Made by a program: the position numbers. DNA of 64,000 nt, taken from assembly GCA_963514005.1 (NCBI GenBank), contig OY740788.1, positions 38,192,001-38,256,000 on the forward strand, given 5' to 3'. This document shows, piece after piece, positions 54,001 through 60,000 of the stretch. Position 1 is the stretch's first letter, and each line of letters begins with the position of its first letter. The stretch comes from Raja brachyura (Eukaryota).

Positions 54001-57000
54001 ATTGCCTGGGTATAATTGCCTGGTGTGATGTATGTGATATAATTAGCATATGTTATGTCTTGTGTGAGGGGACGCATGCGCTGGGGGAGATTCAAGGCGG
54101 CGTCCTAGAATAAAGAAGCTTGTTAGTTTACTCCTGTATCTGAGTGTTCTTTTAAGTCAGTTCCAAGCACCCAAATACACTACAATTGGCGACGAGGATG
54201 GGATGGAGTTTGTGAACTCACCTGCAGGACTGTTTTGCAACAAGCAGGATTGTTTAACAGTTTAAACAATAGATATGGAGTTGTGTTGCAGTTGTTTGCG
54301 AGCTGGACATGAGAGGCCTGCAGATCCCTCTAAGCATGGGACTGTAGTTTAAAACATCAGCTGTACAAGTCAGCGAGTTTGTCAGGCTATCTCTATGTTG
54401 TGTCTACGTGGCAAGAGGTCGTCCTTCGGATTGTTACACATTTTAGACTGAGTTTTTTCTGTCGAATTCCTCAAGCTGAATAATCTTTGTACAGCTAAGT
54501 TTTAGGTGAATTGTTACACCAAAACACACAAGGATAACGAGGCAACGAGGATAAAAGAACAGAAAAGAACAAAGAACAAGGGCTGTCAAGAGAAAAAAAA
54601 GTTAAAAAGAAGAGGTTGTGTTTGGAAACAAAGTGGAACGGCACCAAGCAAAAAGATTTGGTGCCAAATGGTTTTGAATTGGCGCCAAAGAAAAGAAAGG
54701 TCAGAACAGGAAGCAAGGAAAACAAGTGGGGCAGTAAGTAAGTGTCACTGAAGACACTTGAATGTGAATGTAATGCGTGGGCACAGTAAAAGCAGGACTG
54801 TTTGAATGTAATGCATTGGTCACTGTTATTAATAGTAAATCTGGGTGCATAGAAGGAATATGGTTTAAAATATTCTAGTTGGCTATTAACATGAAATGTT
54901 GGTTAATAGTATAAATCCATTATTATAAGAATTAGTAATAGTCAATAGGCTGGATCACTTCTTAGCGTGTAAAAGGATTAAGTTTAGTGCAGAAAACACA
55001 GTGAGAGAACAGAACATAGTGCATCTGAATAGCAACAGGGTAACATGGCTTTTCAAATTGTAGGAAAGGTGCCCTAGTTAGATTCTGGGTGTAATTTTGA
55101 GAAATGGACCAAAGTCTTGAGGGCTTGTTTCATTTCCAATGATATCGCTGCAGAGGATAAGAAGAGAGCATGGTTCATATTAGGCTTAGGAAAAGAGGGT
55201 TATCAGACCTTACATAGGTCACTGCAGCCAGCAACTCCCACAGATAAAATGTACGAGGAGTGTCAGGAGGCATTAATGGCTAATTTCTCACCAAAACCTC
55301 CAAGGGCATCCAGAGGCAAGGAGCCTGAACTAAAGAGGGCAGGGAGTCCCTCAAAGGACAAAAGTCAAGGGCAAAGTGACAAAAGTCAAGGGCAAAGTGA
55401 CAAAAGTCAAGTGCCAAGTGACAAAGGTCAATTGGAAAAGGCCAAAGGTCAAAGGCAAAGGGACATTGCCATCCAGAGGGCAACCCTAACTATTCAAGCT
55501 GCATTCAGGGGTATGAAGGTACGGAGAGAGATCCAGAACAAACAGAAGGCAGCAACAGTAATACAAACAGCATTTAGAAGGCACAGAGTATACCATCCAT
55601 ACAGGGCAATGCGATTGGCAGCTATATTTGGTCAAAACCCATTATAGGGCACACCTTCAAATGGAAAGTGATCATAAGACTTACATGAAGGTACACAGCA
55701 GCTTTGTACTGCTTCAGGCTGCCTACCGAGGAATGCTTGTTCGAAAGCAATTGCGGGGCATGCACAAATCTGCCAAGTCATACAGACTTATTATCAGATG
55801 CATAAACAGCGTCAGTATTTCAAGAAACTACGCTGGTCTGCTATTGCGGTACAGCAACGATACAGAGCTTGCCAGATAAGTGATGTCCAAGTGAGACATT
55901 ATAATAGTTTGAGAAAAGCAGTGGTTTGTATTCAGGCCTTTTACCGTGGGATTAAAGCCAGAGGATTGGTTGAGAAAATCAAGGCAGCATGCCATATTAA
56001 GTCAGTCTTAATGATGCGCATTACAAGAAAACATTTCTTGATGCAAAAGGCGGCTGTAGTCACTCTGCAAGCTTCATACCATGGTTACCGATCAAGGGTA
56101 CGCTACAGAGCTATGCGACAAGCAGTCATTTCGATCCAGAGATGGTACAAAGCATGCAATATGGGGCATTCAAAGTTTGTGCAATATCAGTCAATGGGGT
56201 ATGCAACCATTACCATTCAGGCTGCCTACAAGGGTATGGTGGTTAGGCAGTGGATTAAGCAAAAGAGGGCTACTGTAAAAGTTCAGTCAGTACTTCGTAT
56301 GAGTTGGTATAGGAAAGACCTAAGGAGACAAACAGAGGCTCAACAGAAAAGGCTGAAACAATACAAAAGGCTTAAACGATATAGGAAAGACTTCTTCAAA
56401 CTGAAATATACAACAGTTGTAGTGCAGTCTCACTACCATGCTTATGCAGTAAGAAAACTATACAGAGTGCAAATCTGCAATACAACAGAGCAAAGCCATT
56501 GTTGTATTGCAAAGACAATATAGATCCTACTTCTTGATGAATAACCAGAAAGGTGATTTAAGAAGACAAATAGATGAAACAGAGAGAATGTTAACTTTTG
56601 CAGAATATCATGAACAGGAAGAAATCTGCAAATTAGATTAGAATATTTAAAAAGGGAAGAGCCAGAGATACAGGTAGAGTTAGAGTGATTAGAAAGAGTG
56701 CGCAATTTACACAAAGGGAACGGAAAAGGATAACACATAAAGCAAGGGGTAATGTACGTGGTTTAAGGAAGAGGAGTGGAATGAAAAATTATGTGCTAAG
56801 TTTAGATACGATTATTACAGTTATGCGGATGTAATGTAAGATGACTGTAATAATATAATTTTGCAAGTTACTCAATTATATTTAATGTAAACGGAATGGT
56901 GTTATCCGCCTCCAAGTTAAAGGGGGAGCAGTGTGGTGTGTATTATATAAATGGTGTTACCTGCCTCCAAGTTAAAGGGGGAGCAGTGTTATGTATGTGA

Positions 57001-60000
57001 TATAATTAGCATATGTTATGTCTTGTGCGAGGGGACGCATGCGCTGGGGGAGACTCAAGGCGGCGTCATAGAATAAAGAAGCTTGTTAGTTTACTCTTGT
57101 ATCTGAGTGTTCTTTTAAGTCAGTTCCAAGCACCCAAATACACTACACCTGGGTATAATTATGAAATATCAGTTAAAGTCAGGAAAAGGTGCAGCAGTAG
57201 ATTTGCTGCTTTACTGTGCTAGAGGGTTAGATCCTGACTACGGGTGCTGTCTGTACAGAGTTTGTACATTCTCCTTGTTACCACGTGGGTTTTCTTCTGG
57301 TTTCCTCCCACACTCCAAAGATATGCAGGTTTGTAAGCAAATTGGCTTTAGTAAAATTGTAAATGGTCCCTAGTGCGTGTAGATAGTGTTAATGTGCGGG
57401 GATTGTTGTTCAGCGCGGACTTGGTGGGCCTTAAGGGCCTGTTTCCACGCTGTATCCCTAAACTCAACTAAATTAAAATTAACTCGCCAGGCAAGCTGGA
57501 ACAAACTTATGCAGTCATGAGGTTGGCAGAGGCAGGAAAAAGAGCAATGGCCGCAAAACTGGTGATCTGCTAGAAAAATGGATGTGAATGATCAGCGTGA
57601 CAGAAATAATAGTAAACACTGGCCAAACTACTATGAAATGGTGACCTGGGTGGAACTAAAATGCCACACAGTGTTTATTTGTGTGGCATTTTTGATCGCT
57701 AGAGCCACATAAATTATGTGACTGATAAAGACCATATATGAACATTGATTCATATTGAGGAATAATATTAACCACGTTGAAGAAAGTTTAAGGACTGAAA
57801 TGGTAGTCAAAATGAGTACTGCGTACTGAAGATAATGTCGCCTCTGGCCACAATGCTCAAGAAGGTAACTGTAAGTTGCTTGTGTAGGAAAGAACTGCAG
57901 ATGCTGGTTTACACCAGAGATAGACACAATAAGCTGGACTAACTGAGTTACTCTAGCTGTAAGTTGCTTGCCAACTATTGCTTGTTGAATGATAACCATG
58001 TAAGAAGAATTTTCTTCCTTATAAATTCTCTCCAACTATTTTGCCTTGTCCATGATTCGGTTTTACTTTACATCATTTGCCTTGACTTTTTAAAAACTGG
58101 ATTTGAATCTCATCCAGCAGACTGTGATATCTAAAAGTTAAAGAATATCTTGACAAGAATGGGCAAGACCGGATGGATGGGCCAGCTGGTGTTTGCCCTG
58201 TTAGGATTCCAGAAATTTGTTTGCCCTTAAAATATTTAAAATTCAAATCTGCTGACGCTGGAATTTTGGAAATTATTGGTGCTGACTATAGTCTTTGAGT
58301 TTAGTTTAGTTTAGTTAGAGATACAGCGTGGAAACAGGCCCTTCGGCCCACCGAGTCCATGCCGACCAGCGATCCCCACACACTACACACACTAGGGACA
58401 ATTTACAATTATACCAAGCCAATTAACCTACAAACCTGTACGTCTTTGGAGAGGGGAAAGAAACCGAAGATCTCGGAGAAAACCCATGCGGTCGCAGTGA
58501 GAACGTACAAACTACGTACAGACAAGCACCCGTAGTCGGGATCAAACTTGATCAAACCCGAGTCTCCAACGCTGTAAGGGCTGTAAGGCAGCAACTCTAC
58601 CGCTGCGCAACGATGCTGCGTTGTGGTCTTGGTCCACAATATTTCTGAACATTGGCTCAGTATTTTCAGTGGTTCCTGTTTATTTTAAATCAAATCAAAT
58701 TCACCAAGCCTCATGTGAACCGGCTGGGTGTCATTTCTTGCCCCAACTTTTTTCAACACAAGTGGGTGAGTTGGACTTAGGCTGCAGTGTTTAAGATTCT
58801 AATGTTTGTCCTGAACCCGAGCAACCAGCGATCTCCCGGTTGCCAAACACTTTAACTCCACGTCCCGTCCCCACACTGACCTTTCTGTCTTGGGCCTCCT
58901 CCACTGTCAGGGTGAGGCCACACACACATTGGAGGAACAACACCTCATATTGTGCTTGGGCATCTTACAACCCAGTGGTATGAACATTGAATTCTCTAAT
59001 CCCTCTCTCTACATCCCTCCCCCACCCTAGTCGTCCTGCCAGTTTCACTGTTGGTATCCCTTCATTATCAACTTCTCCGCAGCCAACAATGGACCATTGT
59101 GGGCTCCTTGGCAATCGGTGCCGGCTATGATTTGTTCTGTACCTTTTCATACCTCTAGCTTTCCTCTCCTCTGACTCTCAGTCTGAAGAAGGGTCTCAAC
59201 ATGAAACAATTAATTTTCTCCAGAGATGCTGCCAGACCTGCTGAGTTACTCCAGCATTTTCTGTCCACATCTGTTTTTAGCTGCTAACATTGATTCTATA
59301 TTGCTGAGGCACCAGAAGGGTACAGCTCTATAAACGTATTAATGGATCAGATGTAGAGCAGAATAACCAGTGATCCAGTGAGCTATGTCAATGAGTTTTC
59401 AGGATATACCACATGATTCAGGTGCTATTTTCTATTTAAAATGCTGTTAATAGGAGCTACTATTAATCAAATCAAGTATTAAATGCGGAAAGAAGTAAAA
59501 TTAATTTACAACAAGATTAAGATTAAGGGACATTGTTTAAATTGGTGAATAGTCAATTTAAAAGGATGTCAAGAAATTTATTTTGTTGAGAAAATGGTAT
59601 TCAGTGTTTCACAATATTCCCCAGACAAGGTAGTAAAGTCAAAAACATTACAAATGCTCAAACTGCAGCTGGAGGACATTGTGGGAGTATTGAAGTACAG
59701 TTAGGATGAAGTTAATGGGTCATTTGGCATTGCTTTGTCTTTAACTCGTCTAATATTCTTGCGATCATTTGAGGAGTCTTCTGTGCCATGTGGCACTGCA
59801 TCCATTTTTGAATGACTTACAAAACCATCAAACAGATTAGCAAAATCCCTCTACATAATGAATGCGCTCCTTCTGCTAACATTAATTATTACTTAAACAT
59901 AGAAAATGTATCACAACCAAAGTTTCTGAGCTTGCATTCCGACATTTATACATTTGTTTACTTTGTCTTGGGCCTTTCCCCAATCGTGAATTCCTTCTTT

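What the first reader, a model, noticed from the sequence alone, without database searches (positions are those of the whole stretch)
54024..57147. LTR retrotransposon that captured an ASPM-like IQ-repeat array and fused it in frame to gag
Seen: a structurally complete LTR element (161-bp LTRs, CCTGG TSD, PBS, PPT) with no recognisable pol. A gag-like N-terminus of about 85 aa reads without frameshift through a DKSQGQS linker into about 1 kb of IQ motifs. Known: this IQ pattern is characteristic of the large exon of ASPM, a calmodulin-binding spindle-pole protein, and the gag motif with a tRNA-Ser PBS and 5-bp TSD fits Mag/K02A2.6-type Gypsy elements. Inference: a host-gene fragment was transduced and then amplified as a non-autonomous family. 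The Gag-IQ fusion could have co-assembled with helper Gag or bound calmodulin. I know of no description of such a family.
Basis: partly seen in the sequence, partly recalled or inferred. Interest (0 to 1): 0.92.

Follow-up and report, generated by a model that had tools for sequence, protein, structure and literature searches.

The report
Dead retrotransposon carrying an ASPM fragment
A small, decayed jumping gene in a skate-like genome picked up a piece of the host spindle gene ASPM and fused it to the start of its own coat-protein gene, which is a rare example of an already known kind of gene capture.

Summary
The structure is real. Window 54024-57147 is a 3124-bp LTR element with two 161-bp LTRs (156 of 161 identical), a CCTGG target duplication and a polypurine tract. 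Its 18-base primer site matches a printed tRNA-Ser(GCT) primer exactly. It has no pol.

The first ~85 codons are homologous to the N-terminus of Ty3/Gypsy Gag. They read in frame through a 21-bp minisatellite into ~1.08 kb that is colinear with one stretch of the ASPM IQ array. That stretch lies at about residues 2390-2830 of ~3400-residue fish and bird orthologues (up to 40% identity, E 4e-49).

- The reading frame is broken by one stop in the gag part and three frameshifts in the IQ array.
- A second, older copy lies in the same window at 38560-42695 on the minus strand.

A RefSeq protein of Leucoraja erinacea, XP_055489032.1, carries the same fusion and is named an ASPM homologue. This makes at least three copies that share one junction, so it is a non-autonomous family.

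The two window copies differ neutrally (pN/pS 0.95). The gag piece lacks the capsid C-terminal lobe and the zinc knuckle, so nothing supports a working Gag-IQ protein here. This is a new member of a known kind (Bs1 of maize, gag-host fusions of defective retroviruses). Four literature searches found no description.

The parts
54019..54023 (+). Target-site duplication, left (CCTGG)
   Evidence: Abuts the 5' LTR. The same 5 bases abut the 3' LTR.
54024..54184 (+). 5' LTR of copy 1, 161 bp, TG...CA. It holds an ATATAA-like box near its start and AATAAA at 54109-54114.
   Evidence: Direct repeat family D1. Alignment shows 156 of 161 identical. Signals read.
54187..54204 (+). Primer-binding site, 18 bases, complementary to the 3' end of tRNA-Ser(GCT)
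   Evidence: Starts TGG, 2 bases after the LTR. Identical to the first 18 bases of the tRNA-Ser(GCT) primer printed in PMC9072684.
54205..55044 (+). Leader of about 840 bases, with no protein family match
   Evidence: Pfam found nothing in its two open pieces. 54545-54717 is shared with copy 2. 54203-54540 is absent from copy 2 and has no other copy in the window.
55045..56641 (+). Broken fusion gene of copy 1 (gag N-terminus, linker, ASPM-derived IQ array, short tail). It has 1 in-frame stop and 3 frameshifts.
   Evidence: Translations. Frameshift-aware alignment that kept counts only. Pfam IQ hits in four open pieces.
55045..55299 (+). Domain: gag-like N-terminus, 85 codons, ending at the FSPKP motif
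   Evidence: 63 hits at E<=1e-3 in the exhaustive search. The relatives are Gag proteins. The alignment to P0003 ends at residue 74 of the piece.
55352..55465 (+). Domain: 21-bp minisatellite linker (7-residue unit DKSQGQS), 5.5 units
   Evidence: TRF and family D2. Neither gag relatives nor ASPM orthologues match it.
55450..56530 (+). Domain: ASPM-derived IQ array, colinear with about 350 residues of the distal IQ region of ASPM
   Evidence: Outer bounds of the frameshift-aware alignments to P0099 and P0133. Position-specific blastp matches.
56531..56894 (+). End of the reading frame and 3' untranslated tail, origin unknown
   Evidence: The last open piece matched 0 of 119 ASPM orthologues. 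Copy 2 has about 320 more bases here.
56895..57004 (+). 55-bp tandem duplication holding two polypurine tracts (56919-56931 and 56974-56986), each followed by an LTR start
   Evidence: Family D5, TRF, alignment.
56987..57147 (+). 3' LTR of copy 1, 161 bp
57148..57152 (+). Target-site duplication, right (CCTGG)
38560..42695 (-). Copy 2 of the same family, 4136 bp. It is older and more decayed, with 5-bp flanks TGACG and TGACA (4 of 5 identical).
   Evidence: Self-blastn gave three colinear internal blocks at 84-87% identity plus LTR matches. Sequence. End alignment. Flanks share only dispersed short repeats with those of copy 1.
42484..42695 (-). 5' LTR of copy 2, long form (212 bp). It includes the 55-bp unit that is internal in copy 1.
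   Evidence: It aligns to copy 1 from just after the first purine tract onward, while the flank upstream does not align.
42469..42481 (-). Primer-binding site remnant of copy 2, with one mismatch to copy 1, followed by a deletion
39281..41134 (-). Broken fusion gene of copy 2. It has 1 stop in the gag-like part, 4 to 6 further stops or frameshifts in the IQ array depending on the guide, and 1 nested short interspersed repeat.
   Evidence: The linker has 6.6 units.
38560..38644 (-). 3' LTR remnant of copy 2. Its first part is missing and it has an internal deletion.

Best explanation
Both loci are dead copies of a non-autonomous Ty3/Gypsy-type LTR retrotransposon family of skates.

What the element keeps from its parent:
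- the LTRs;
- a tRNA-Ser primer site;
- the leader;
- the first ~85 codons of gag;
- the 3' end with the polypurine tract.

The rest of gag and all of pol were replaced by two things. One is a 21-bp minisatellite. The other is a contiguous ~1.08-kb sense-strand piece of the host ASPM coding sequence, taken from the distal part of its IQ array and joined in frame.

Shown: the anatomy, the gag and ASPM origin of the two coding parts, one shared junction in three copies, independent insertion sites, and neutral decay of the two window copies.

Inferred:
- The fusion arose once, during reverse transcription. The likely routes are a template switch onto a co-packaged ASPM transcript, or a read-through or chimeric transcript.
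- Copies were then made in trans with the proteins of a related autonomous element. The element encodes no protease, reverse transcriptase or integrase of its own.
- The Gag-IQ reading frame was probably a passenger rather than a needed product.
For: Structure:
- LTRs, TSD and PPT are confirmed.
- The primer site equals the printed tRNA-Ser(GCT) primer over 18 of 18 bases.

Gag:
- 63 hits at E<=1e-3. I scanned 27 of them. Among the 26 outside the family, 20 carry gag-type Pfam families and 6 carry pol domains in Gypsy order.
- Homology ends after residue 74 of the piece.

ASPM:
- The only hit of the 281-residue piece among proteins of 493-2000 residues is an asp orthologue.
- It matched 119 of 119 orthologues, best at 40% over 242 residues and E 4e-49.
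- The median best register scored 123 bits against 95.5 for the second best.
- The two upstream pieces have colinear hits just before it, for example P0133 2478-2534, 2531-2594 and 2581-2815.
- The frameshift-aware alignment spans P0133 residues 2478-2829.
- ASPM similarity in the window lies only inside the two copies, which hold 95 of 95 HSPs.

Family:
- Copy 2 is 84-87% identical over three blocks. It has its own flanks and its own 5-bp flank pair.
- XP_055489032.1 of Leucoraja erinacea has the same two junctions and a longer linker, and is not encoded by the window.

No pol.

Neutral decay: pN/pS is 0.95 over 428 of 460 codons, Fisher p 0.80. Breaks were counted.
Against: - No cartilaginous-fish ASPM was among the 120 orthologues listed. 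Identity to the host's own gene, the exact capture borders and the age of capture are therefore unmeasured.
- Relatives of the 80-residue gag piece outside the family are at most 48% identical over most of its length (one 48-residue fragment, P0010, is 62% identical over 40 residues), so no autonomous partner was identified.
- The 150 bases between the gag piece and the ASPM piece, and the tail after the IQ array, have no known source.
- The RefSeq model is open over all 290 residues. Some copies may therefore still encode a protein, which the neutral pN/pS of two dead copies cannot exclude.
Confidence: 0.85

Rival explanations
1. The fusion is a working gene, or was one for the family. A Gag(N)-IQ protein is made. 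It either binds calmodulin or interferes with the Gag of the autonomous partner, or it has been taken over by the host.
For: - The RefSeq model XP_055489032.1 is open over 290 residues and runs through about 14 linker units, all in frame.
- The linker unit is 21 bases, so changes in unit number keep the frame.
- Nine strict IQ cores survive in copy 1.
Against: - Copy 1 has 1 stop and 3 frameshifts. Copy 2 has 5 to 7 breaks plus a nested repeat.
- pN/pS between the copies is 0.95 and is not different from 1.
- The gag piece covers only about half of the Retrotrans_gag region of its relatives. It lacks the part that matches solved capsid C-terminal lobes and zinc knuckles.
- No expression data could be seen.
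Confidence: 0.1
2. The capture happened at the DNA level rather than from an mRNA. An element lay in or beside a copy of the large IQ exon of ASPM, and a read-through transcript or a recombination between elements enclosed the exon piece.
For: - The captured stretch maps inside the region that in man is a single 4.7-kb exon. That exon holds at least residues 1640-2855 of an IQ domain spanning 1267-3225 (PMC374243, passages).
- No splice junction is therefore available to show an RNA source.
- Unknown sequence lies on both sides of the ASPM piece.
Against: - The piece is in sense orientation and in frame with gag. This fits the RNA routes described for retroelements (PMC13317346 and PMC4299795, passages) at least as well.
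- No ASPM intron or flank sequence could be recognised, but none could be looked for without the host gene.
Confidence: 0.25
3. The two window copies arose by local segmental duplication or misassembly, not by transposition, so there is no family.
For: Two copies lie within 16 kb of each other.
Against: - The copies are in opposite orientation.
- Their flanks share only dispersed short repeats.
- Each has its own 5-bp flank pair.
- They differ in LTR form, leader and tail.
- A third copy is annotated in Leucoraja erinacea on a 113.5-Mb contig and is not encoded by the window.
Confidence: 0.03
4. The IQ array is generic or comes from another IQ protein such as a myosin, not from ASPM.
For: IQ motifs occur in many proteins, and Pfam names only the motif.
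Against: - The match is position-specific and colinear over about 350 residues in 119 of 119 asp/ASPM orthologues.
- No PDB chain matched at E<=0.01.
- An asp orthologue was the sole hit.
- RefSeq names the family member an ASPM homologue.
- That myosin lever arms are among the PDB chains is my own knowledge, not a call result.
Confidence: 0.02

Closest known systems
Bs1 of maize (LTR retroelement with transduced host gene fragments in a hybrid reading frame)
   Same: - A small LTR element without pol.
- Host gene fragments sit inside the LTRs and are read together with element sequence.
- It is non-autonomous.
Source: PMC13317346, passages and reference titles. That Bs1 is about 3 kb long and keeps a gag part is my recollection.
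   Different: - Bs1 is a plant element holding pieces of three host genes.
- This one is in a vertebrate (a skate), has a Ty3/Gypsy-type gag and holds one contiguous piece of one gene.
- The two parts are joined through a 21-bp minisatellite.
Replication-defective transducing retroviruses with gag-host fusions, and crocodilian endogenous retroviruses that captured nectin3 and KIT-ligand
   Same: - A host coding sequence was taken into an LTR retroelement.
- This is usually at the cost of element genes, so copies depend on a helper (PMC4299795, passages).
- The in-frame gag-host fusion is the classic layout of transducing retroviruses (established knowledge, recalled).
   Different: - Those are retroviruses that captured whole or near-whole spliced mRNAs, and their reading frames are under purifying selection in crocodilians.
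- Here a Gypsy-type retrotransposon holds an internal repeat-array fragment. The two copies seen show no sign of selection.
Non-autonomous LTR retrotransposons with tandem repeats inside (Culex families; Mag-lineage elements with repeats in the leader)
   Same: - Short LTRs.
- tRNA-Ser primer site.
- 5-bp duplication.
- Tandem repeats between the LTRs.
- No pol.
Source: PMC3286476, passages.
   Different: Those carry non-coding repeats of unknown source. Here the repeats are a recognisable host protein-coding array fused to gag.
ASPM / asp (host spindle-pole protein)
   Same: About 350 residues of the distal IQ array are colinear with ASPM, with up to 40% identity to fish and bird ASPM.
   Different: - No ASH or calponin-homology domain, and no match to any other part of three full-length orthologues, was found in the window.
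- The piece lies between LTRs.
- The RefSeq name 'ASPM homologue' for XP_055489032.1 therefore describes a transposon copy, not a paralogue.

Membership tests
LTR retrotransposon (structural definition) | Two direct long terminal repeats ending TG...CA | tested here: met
   161 bp each, 156 of 161 identical.
LTR retrotransposon (structural definition) | Short target-site duplication abutting both LTRs | tested here: met
   Copy 1 has CCTGG on both sides. Copy 2 has TGACG and TGACA.
LTR retrotransposon (structural definition) | Primer-binding site complementary to a tRNA 3' end next to the 5' LTR | tested here: met
   18 of 18 bases equal the start of the tRNA-Ser(GCT) primer printed in PMC9072684. 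The printed primer is for human tRNA. No skate tRNA gene was available, and the window holds none.
LTR retrotransposon (structural definition) | Polypurine tract next to the 3' LTR | tested here: met
   AAAGGGGGAGCAG at 56974-56986, with a second copy at 56919-56931.
Autonomous LTR retrotransposon | Encodes protease, reverse transcriptase, RNase H and integrase | tested here: not met
   Pfam found only IQ. 64 gag and gag-pol relatives hit only the gag-like sites, apart from 3 HSPs from the IQ part of P0002. No RT or integrase was found in 47 open stretches of the window.
Ty3/Gypsy (Metaviridae-type) elements | Gag homologous to that of elements whose pol order is protease, RT, RNase H, integrase | tested here: met
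   Relatives P0021 and P0042 have that order, and 20 of 26 scanned relatives carry gag-type families. Only the first ~85 codons of gag are present.
Ty3/Gypsy, Mag lineage | Placement by reverse-transcriptase phylogeny | not testable with these tools
   The element has no RT. The short LTR, tRNA-Ser site and 5-bp duplication are consistent with Culex Mag-lineage elements (PMC3286476).
Complete Gag (capsid plus nucleocapsid) | Capsid C-terminal lobe and CCHC zinc knuckle | tested here: not met
   The profile of relatives matches solved Gag, dArc1 and nucleocapsid chains at profile positions 94-265. The element's homology ends before that, and it has no zf-CCHC.
ASPM / asp orthologue or paralogue | N-terminal ASH domain, calponin-homology domains, IQ array, C-terminal region | tested here: not met
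   Only part of the IQ array is present. All 95 tblastn HSPs of three full-length orthologues fall in the two IQ arrays.
Gene-transducing non-autonomous LTR element | Host-derived sequence inside the LTRs, with the same junction in independent insertions | tested here: met
   Copy 1, copy 2 and XP_055489032.1 share both junctions. The flanks differ.
Gene-transducing non-autonomous LTR element | Capture from a spliced transcript | not testable with these tools
   The mapped stretch lies in what is one large exon in man (PMC374243). The skate gene was not available.
Gene-transducing non-autonomous LTR element | An autonomous partner with matching LTR, primer site or gag | not testable with these tools
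   Relatives of the 80-residue gag piece outside the family are at most 48% identical over most of its length (one 48-residue fragment is 62% identical over 40 residues). No skate genome was searchable.

The most novel reading that the evidence does not exclude
Intact members of this family, such as the locus behind XP_055489032.1, are expressed and make a Gag(N)-linker-IQ protein. That protein recruits calmodulin or blocks the partner element's Gag. The captured ASPM array would then have been kept because it helped the element or the host, and a skate 'ASPM-like' gene would be a transposon-born calmodulin binder.
Probability: 0.1. Interest if true: 0.7.

Novelty: new member of a known kind. 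Interest (0 to 1): 0.45.

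Why it matters
This is a clear vertebrate example of a Ty3/Gypsy-type retrotransposon carrying a host coding fragment fused in frame to gag. That layout is best known from transducing retroviruses and from plant elements such as Bs1.

It has a practical consequence. [quoted passage not shown] Counts of ASPM-like genes in skates, and any evolutionary reading of them, need to exclude these copies.

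It also gives a datable marker for skate genomes, because the junction is unique. It shows as well that a 21-bp minisatellite can act as a frame-keeping linker whose length varies between copies.

Tried and rejected
- Pfam on the gag-like piece itself gave nothing at E<=1. The exhaustive search was needed instead.
- The 'longer' protein search reaches only 2000 residues and gave one hit. I considered padding the query to reach full-length ASPM and did not do it. I used the asp hit P0001 as a stepping stone to fetch orthologues.
- No cartilaginous-fish ASPM was among the 120 proteins listed of 1043 that passed.
- The PDB search with the IQ piece gave 0 hits.
It holds P0002 but gave no usable neighbour.
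- A tblastn chain was a poor way to count breaks, because single HSPs ran through out-of-frame stretches. I replaced it with a frameshift-aware alignment that keeps only score, counts and outer bounds.
No fold test was made.
- The window holds no tRNA gene and no Rfam family.
- The last open piece of copy 1, the longer tail of copy 2 and the GC-rich leader segment of copy 2 gave no ASPM hit beyond the IQ motifs, no gag hit and no Pfam hit.
- The genome-contig scan was not used, because that collection holds bacteria and archaea only.
- I rejected the idea that the LINE-like RT scrap next to copy 2 is its missing pol. It lies outside the 3' LTR, scores below Pfam's cut-off (E 0.0018), and a similar scrap lies elsewhere near copy 1.

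Full report
**Source of the window.** I do not take the window for human. The closest named relative of its element is a RefSeq protein of the little skate, Leucoraja erinacea. The window holds no N.

**Anatomy of copy 1.**
- Window 54024-57147 is bounded by two 161-bp direct repeats, at 54024-54184 and 56987-57147.
- They start TG and end CA, and agree at 156 of 161 positions: 3 transitions and 2 transversions, K2P about 0.032 by my arithmetic.
- A 23-base word of the repeat occurs twice in the window, against none in 100 shuffles.
- CCTGG abuts both ends.
- Two bases after the 5' LTR lies an 18-base TGG-initiated site, at 54187-54204. I searched the literature for its first 13 bases. The single paper found (PMC9072684, one passage read) prints a primer for tRNA-Ser(GCT) whose first 18 bases are identical to the window site. 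The printed primer is for human tRNA and no skate tRNA was at hand.
- The purine tract AAAGGGGGAGCAG abuts the 3' LTR.
- A 55-bp tandem duplication at 56895-57004 repeats this tract together with the first bases of the LTR.

**Reading frame of copy 1.**
- One frame runs from the ATG at 55045 through 85 gag-like codons and a short unassigned stretch.
- It continues through 5.5 units of a 21-bp repeat (7 residues, DKSQGQS) into the first IQ motifs.
- The frame is not intact. A frameshift-aware alignment that kept only score, counts and outer bounds gives 1 in-frame stop in the gag-like part.
- It gives 3 frameshifts in the IQ array against guide P0133, and 2 over the shorter span covered by guide P0099.
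- Pfam finds only the IQ motif PF00612 in the four open pieces, and nothing in the leader.

**Gag test.**
- The 80-residue piece has no Pfam hit itself.
- An exhaustive phmmer search over 1.84 billion representatives gave 63 proteins at E<=1e-3.
- I scanned 27 of the 63 with Pfam. One is the family member P0002.
- Of the other 26:
  - 20 carry Retrotrans_gag, PNMA, DUF7083, DUF7041 or zf-CCHC;
  - 6 also carry protease, RT or integrase domains;
  - 5 have no family;
  - 1 has only unrelated families.
- P0021 reads gag, protease, RT, RNase H, integrase, which is the Ty3/Gypsy order. P0042 is named 'K02A2.6-like' by its source.
- Homology to the nearest gag outside the family (P0003, 46% identity) ends at residue 74 of the piece, at FSPKP.
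- A profile of 53 sequences (A2) matches solved retroviral Gag, dArc1 and nucleocapsid chains only at profile positions 94-265. That is downstream of what the element keeps.
- The element thus holds roughly the first quarter of a Gag, without the capsid C-terminal lobe or the zinc knuckle.

**ASPM test.**
- Among proteins of 493-2000 residues, the 281-residue IQ piece had one hit, an abnormal-spindle orthologue of a wasp (P0001, 27% identity).
- Using the IQ region of P0001 as query, I fetched 120 asp/ASPM orthologues out of 1043 that passed. I used 119 of them and left out the one primate entry.
- blastp results:
  - the 281-residue piece hit 119 of 119, best at 40% over 242 residues and E 4e-49 with the Megalops protein P0099;
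  - the first open piece hit 111 of 119, through its IQ part only;
  - the second piece hit 109 of 119;
  - the last piece hit 0 of 119.
- The best register is one specific place. In 104 subjects longer than 2900 residues with alignments over 150 residues, the hit ends a median 580 residues before the C-terminus (range 290-1871).
- The best register scores a median 123 bits against 95.5 for the second best.
- The two upstream pieces have colinear hits immediately before it in the same proteins.
- The frameshift-aware alignment spans P0133 residues 2478-2829.
- No PDB chain matched at E<=0.01.
- The IQ segment is therefore a contiguous piece of the distal ASPM IQ array, in sense orientation.
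- Nine strict IQ cores remain in 375 residues.
- In man the IQ domain spans residues 1267-3225, and one 4.7-kb exon holds at least residues 1640-2855 (PMC374243, passages). If the skate gene is built alike, the captured piece lies within one exon, so nothing here tells an RNA source from a DNA source.
- No spliced model was involved.

**A family, not a single locus.**
- Self-comparison shows a second copy on the minus strand at 38560-42695. It has three colinear internal blocks at 84-87% identity plus LTR matches.
- Its 5' LTR is a long form of 212 bp that begins right after where the first purine tract sits in copy 1. The 55-bp duplication thus appears to offer two alternative LTR starts (inference).
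- Its 3' LTR is a remnant, and its 5-bp flanks are TGACG and TGACA.
- The flanks of the two copies share only dispersed short repeats.
- Differences from copy 1:
  - it lacks about 340 bases of leader that copy 1 has;
  - it has a 915-base GC-rich (62%) leader segment and about 320 more bases of tail;
  - neither extra segment has another copy in the window.
- Its fusion gene has 1 stop in the gag part. In the IQ array it has 4 to 6 further breaks: 3 stops plus 3 frameshifts with one guide, and 4 stops with the other.
- It also has one nested copy of a short interspersed repeat that occurs 24 more times in the window.
- Its IQ pieces map to the same place in ASPM.
[quoted passage not shown] It is 290 residues long and is not encoded by the window.
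- P0002 has the same gag end, the same unassigned stretch and the same entry into the IQ array, with 56 more linker residues.
- One junction in three copies means one capture event followed by copying.

**No sign of function in the window copies.**
- I counted codon by codon within single-frame pieces and added up only the numbers. pN is 0.079 and pS is 0.083, a ratio of 0.95 over 428 of 460 codons, Fisher p 0.80.
- Pfam on 47 of the 52 open stretches of at least 110 residues in the window found no RT or integrase. Of the five left out, two copy-1 pieces had been scanned and three copy-2 pieces were not scanned.
- 64 gag or gag-pol relatives hit only the two gag-like sites, apart from 3 HSPs from the IQ part of P0002.
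- Three full ASPM orthologues hit only inside the two copies (95 of 95 HSPs).
- The window therefore holds neither a helper element nor the host ASPM gene.

**Mechanism.**
- Shown: the parts and their origins, the shared junction, and the independent insertions.
- Inferred: the element was made when reverse transcription joined element RNA to an ASPM transcript, or a chimeric read-through transcript was copied. These are the routes described for retroelement gene capture (PMC13317346 and PMC4299795, passages).
- Copies were then made with a partner's proteins.
- Two copies within 16 kb suggest either a high copy number or local clustering. This is an inference, because no genome was searchable.

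**Literature.**
- 'ASPM' with 'LTR retrotransposon' gave 8 papers, none on capture judging by title and start of abstract.
- 'Leucoraja erinacea', 'transposable elements' and 'Gypsy' gave 2 unrelated papers.
- IQ or calmodulin terms with 'retrotransposon', 'gag' and 'chimeric' gave 20 papers. The 10 listed were unrelated.
- 'Cartilaginous fish', 'LTR retrotransposon', 'non-autonomous' and 'captured' gave 261 papers holding 3 of the 4 terms. The 10 listed were unrelated.
- I found no description of this family.
- Supplements are closed and were not needed for any claim above.

**What stayed unchecked.**
- Genome-wide copy number.
- Distribution among species.
- The partner element.
- The host ASPM of a skate.
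- Expression.

**Verdict.** The frame is broken, a second copy was missed, and the functional idea is unsupported. This is a new member of a known kind and of moderate interest.

Noticed in passing
window 12450-12788 (-): An open stretch holds the first two thirds of a homeodomain (Pfam PF00046, E 2e-10). It ends where an intron would split the domain. The nearest solved chains are engrailed, BarH-like, NK-2 and DLX types. I recall it as resembling an H2.0-like (HLX) gene, which I did not test. A host homeobox gene therefore lies 26-42 kb from the two element copies.
   Followed up: partly
window 44263-46347: A 2-kb C/T-rich low-complexity tract with many overlapping degenerate periods of 14-123 bases. 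It is open in all three plus-strand frames (up to 709 codons) and has no Pfam match. It lies between the two element copies.
   Followed up: partly
window, e.g. 8480-8588, 18800-18876, 48063-48164: A short interspersed repeat of about 100-140 bases occurs 24 times outside copy 2 at 73-97% identity. One further copy is nested in the IQ array of copy 2.
   Followed up: partly
window 53585-53764 and 58314-58500: Two SINE-like segments in the same orientation, 74-77% identical, lie about 260 bases left and 1.2 kb right of copy 1 (families D3 and D4). They look like unrelated dispersed repeats.
   Followed up: no
window 54005-54017 and 57148-57160: The 13 bases CCTGGGTATAATT occur just left of copy 1 and again starting at its right target duplication. 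The empty site would thus already have held a short near-tandem duplication. This may be chance or a feature of the target; it is unexplained.
   Followed up: no
window 41393-42307 (copy 2 leader): A 915-base segment with 62% G+C is present only in copy 2. It has a 104-base unit repeated 1.9 times at 41993-42192, no Pfam match and no other copy in the window. It could be a second captured host fragment or a part that copy 1 lost; it is unexplained.
   Followed up: partly
window 38683-38903 (copy 2, 3' tail): A 113-base unit is duplicated in tandem at 87% identity.
   Followed up: no
window 38288-38452 (-) and 52040-52321: A weak reverse-transcriptase scrap (RVT_1, E 0.0018, below the curated cut-off) lies just outside the 3' LTR remnant of copy 2. 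A 66% similar stretch lies 1.7 kb left of copy 1. It is probably a dispersed LINE-type relic and not part of the element.
   Followed up: partly
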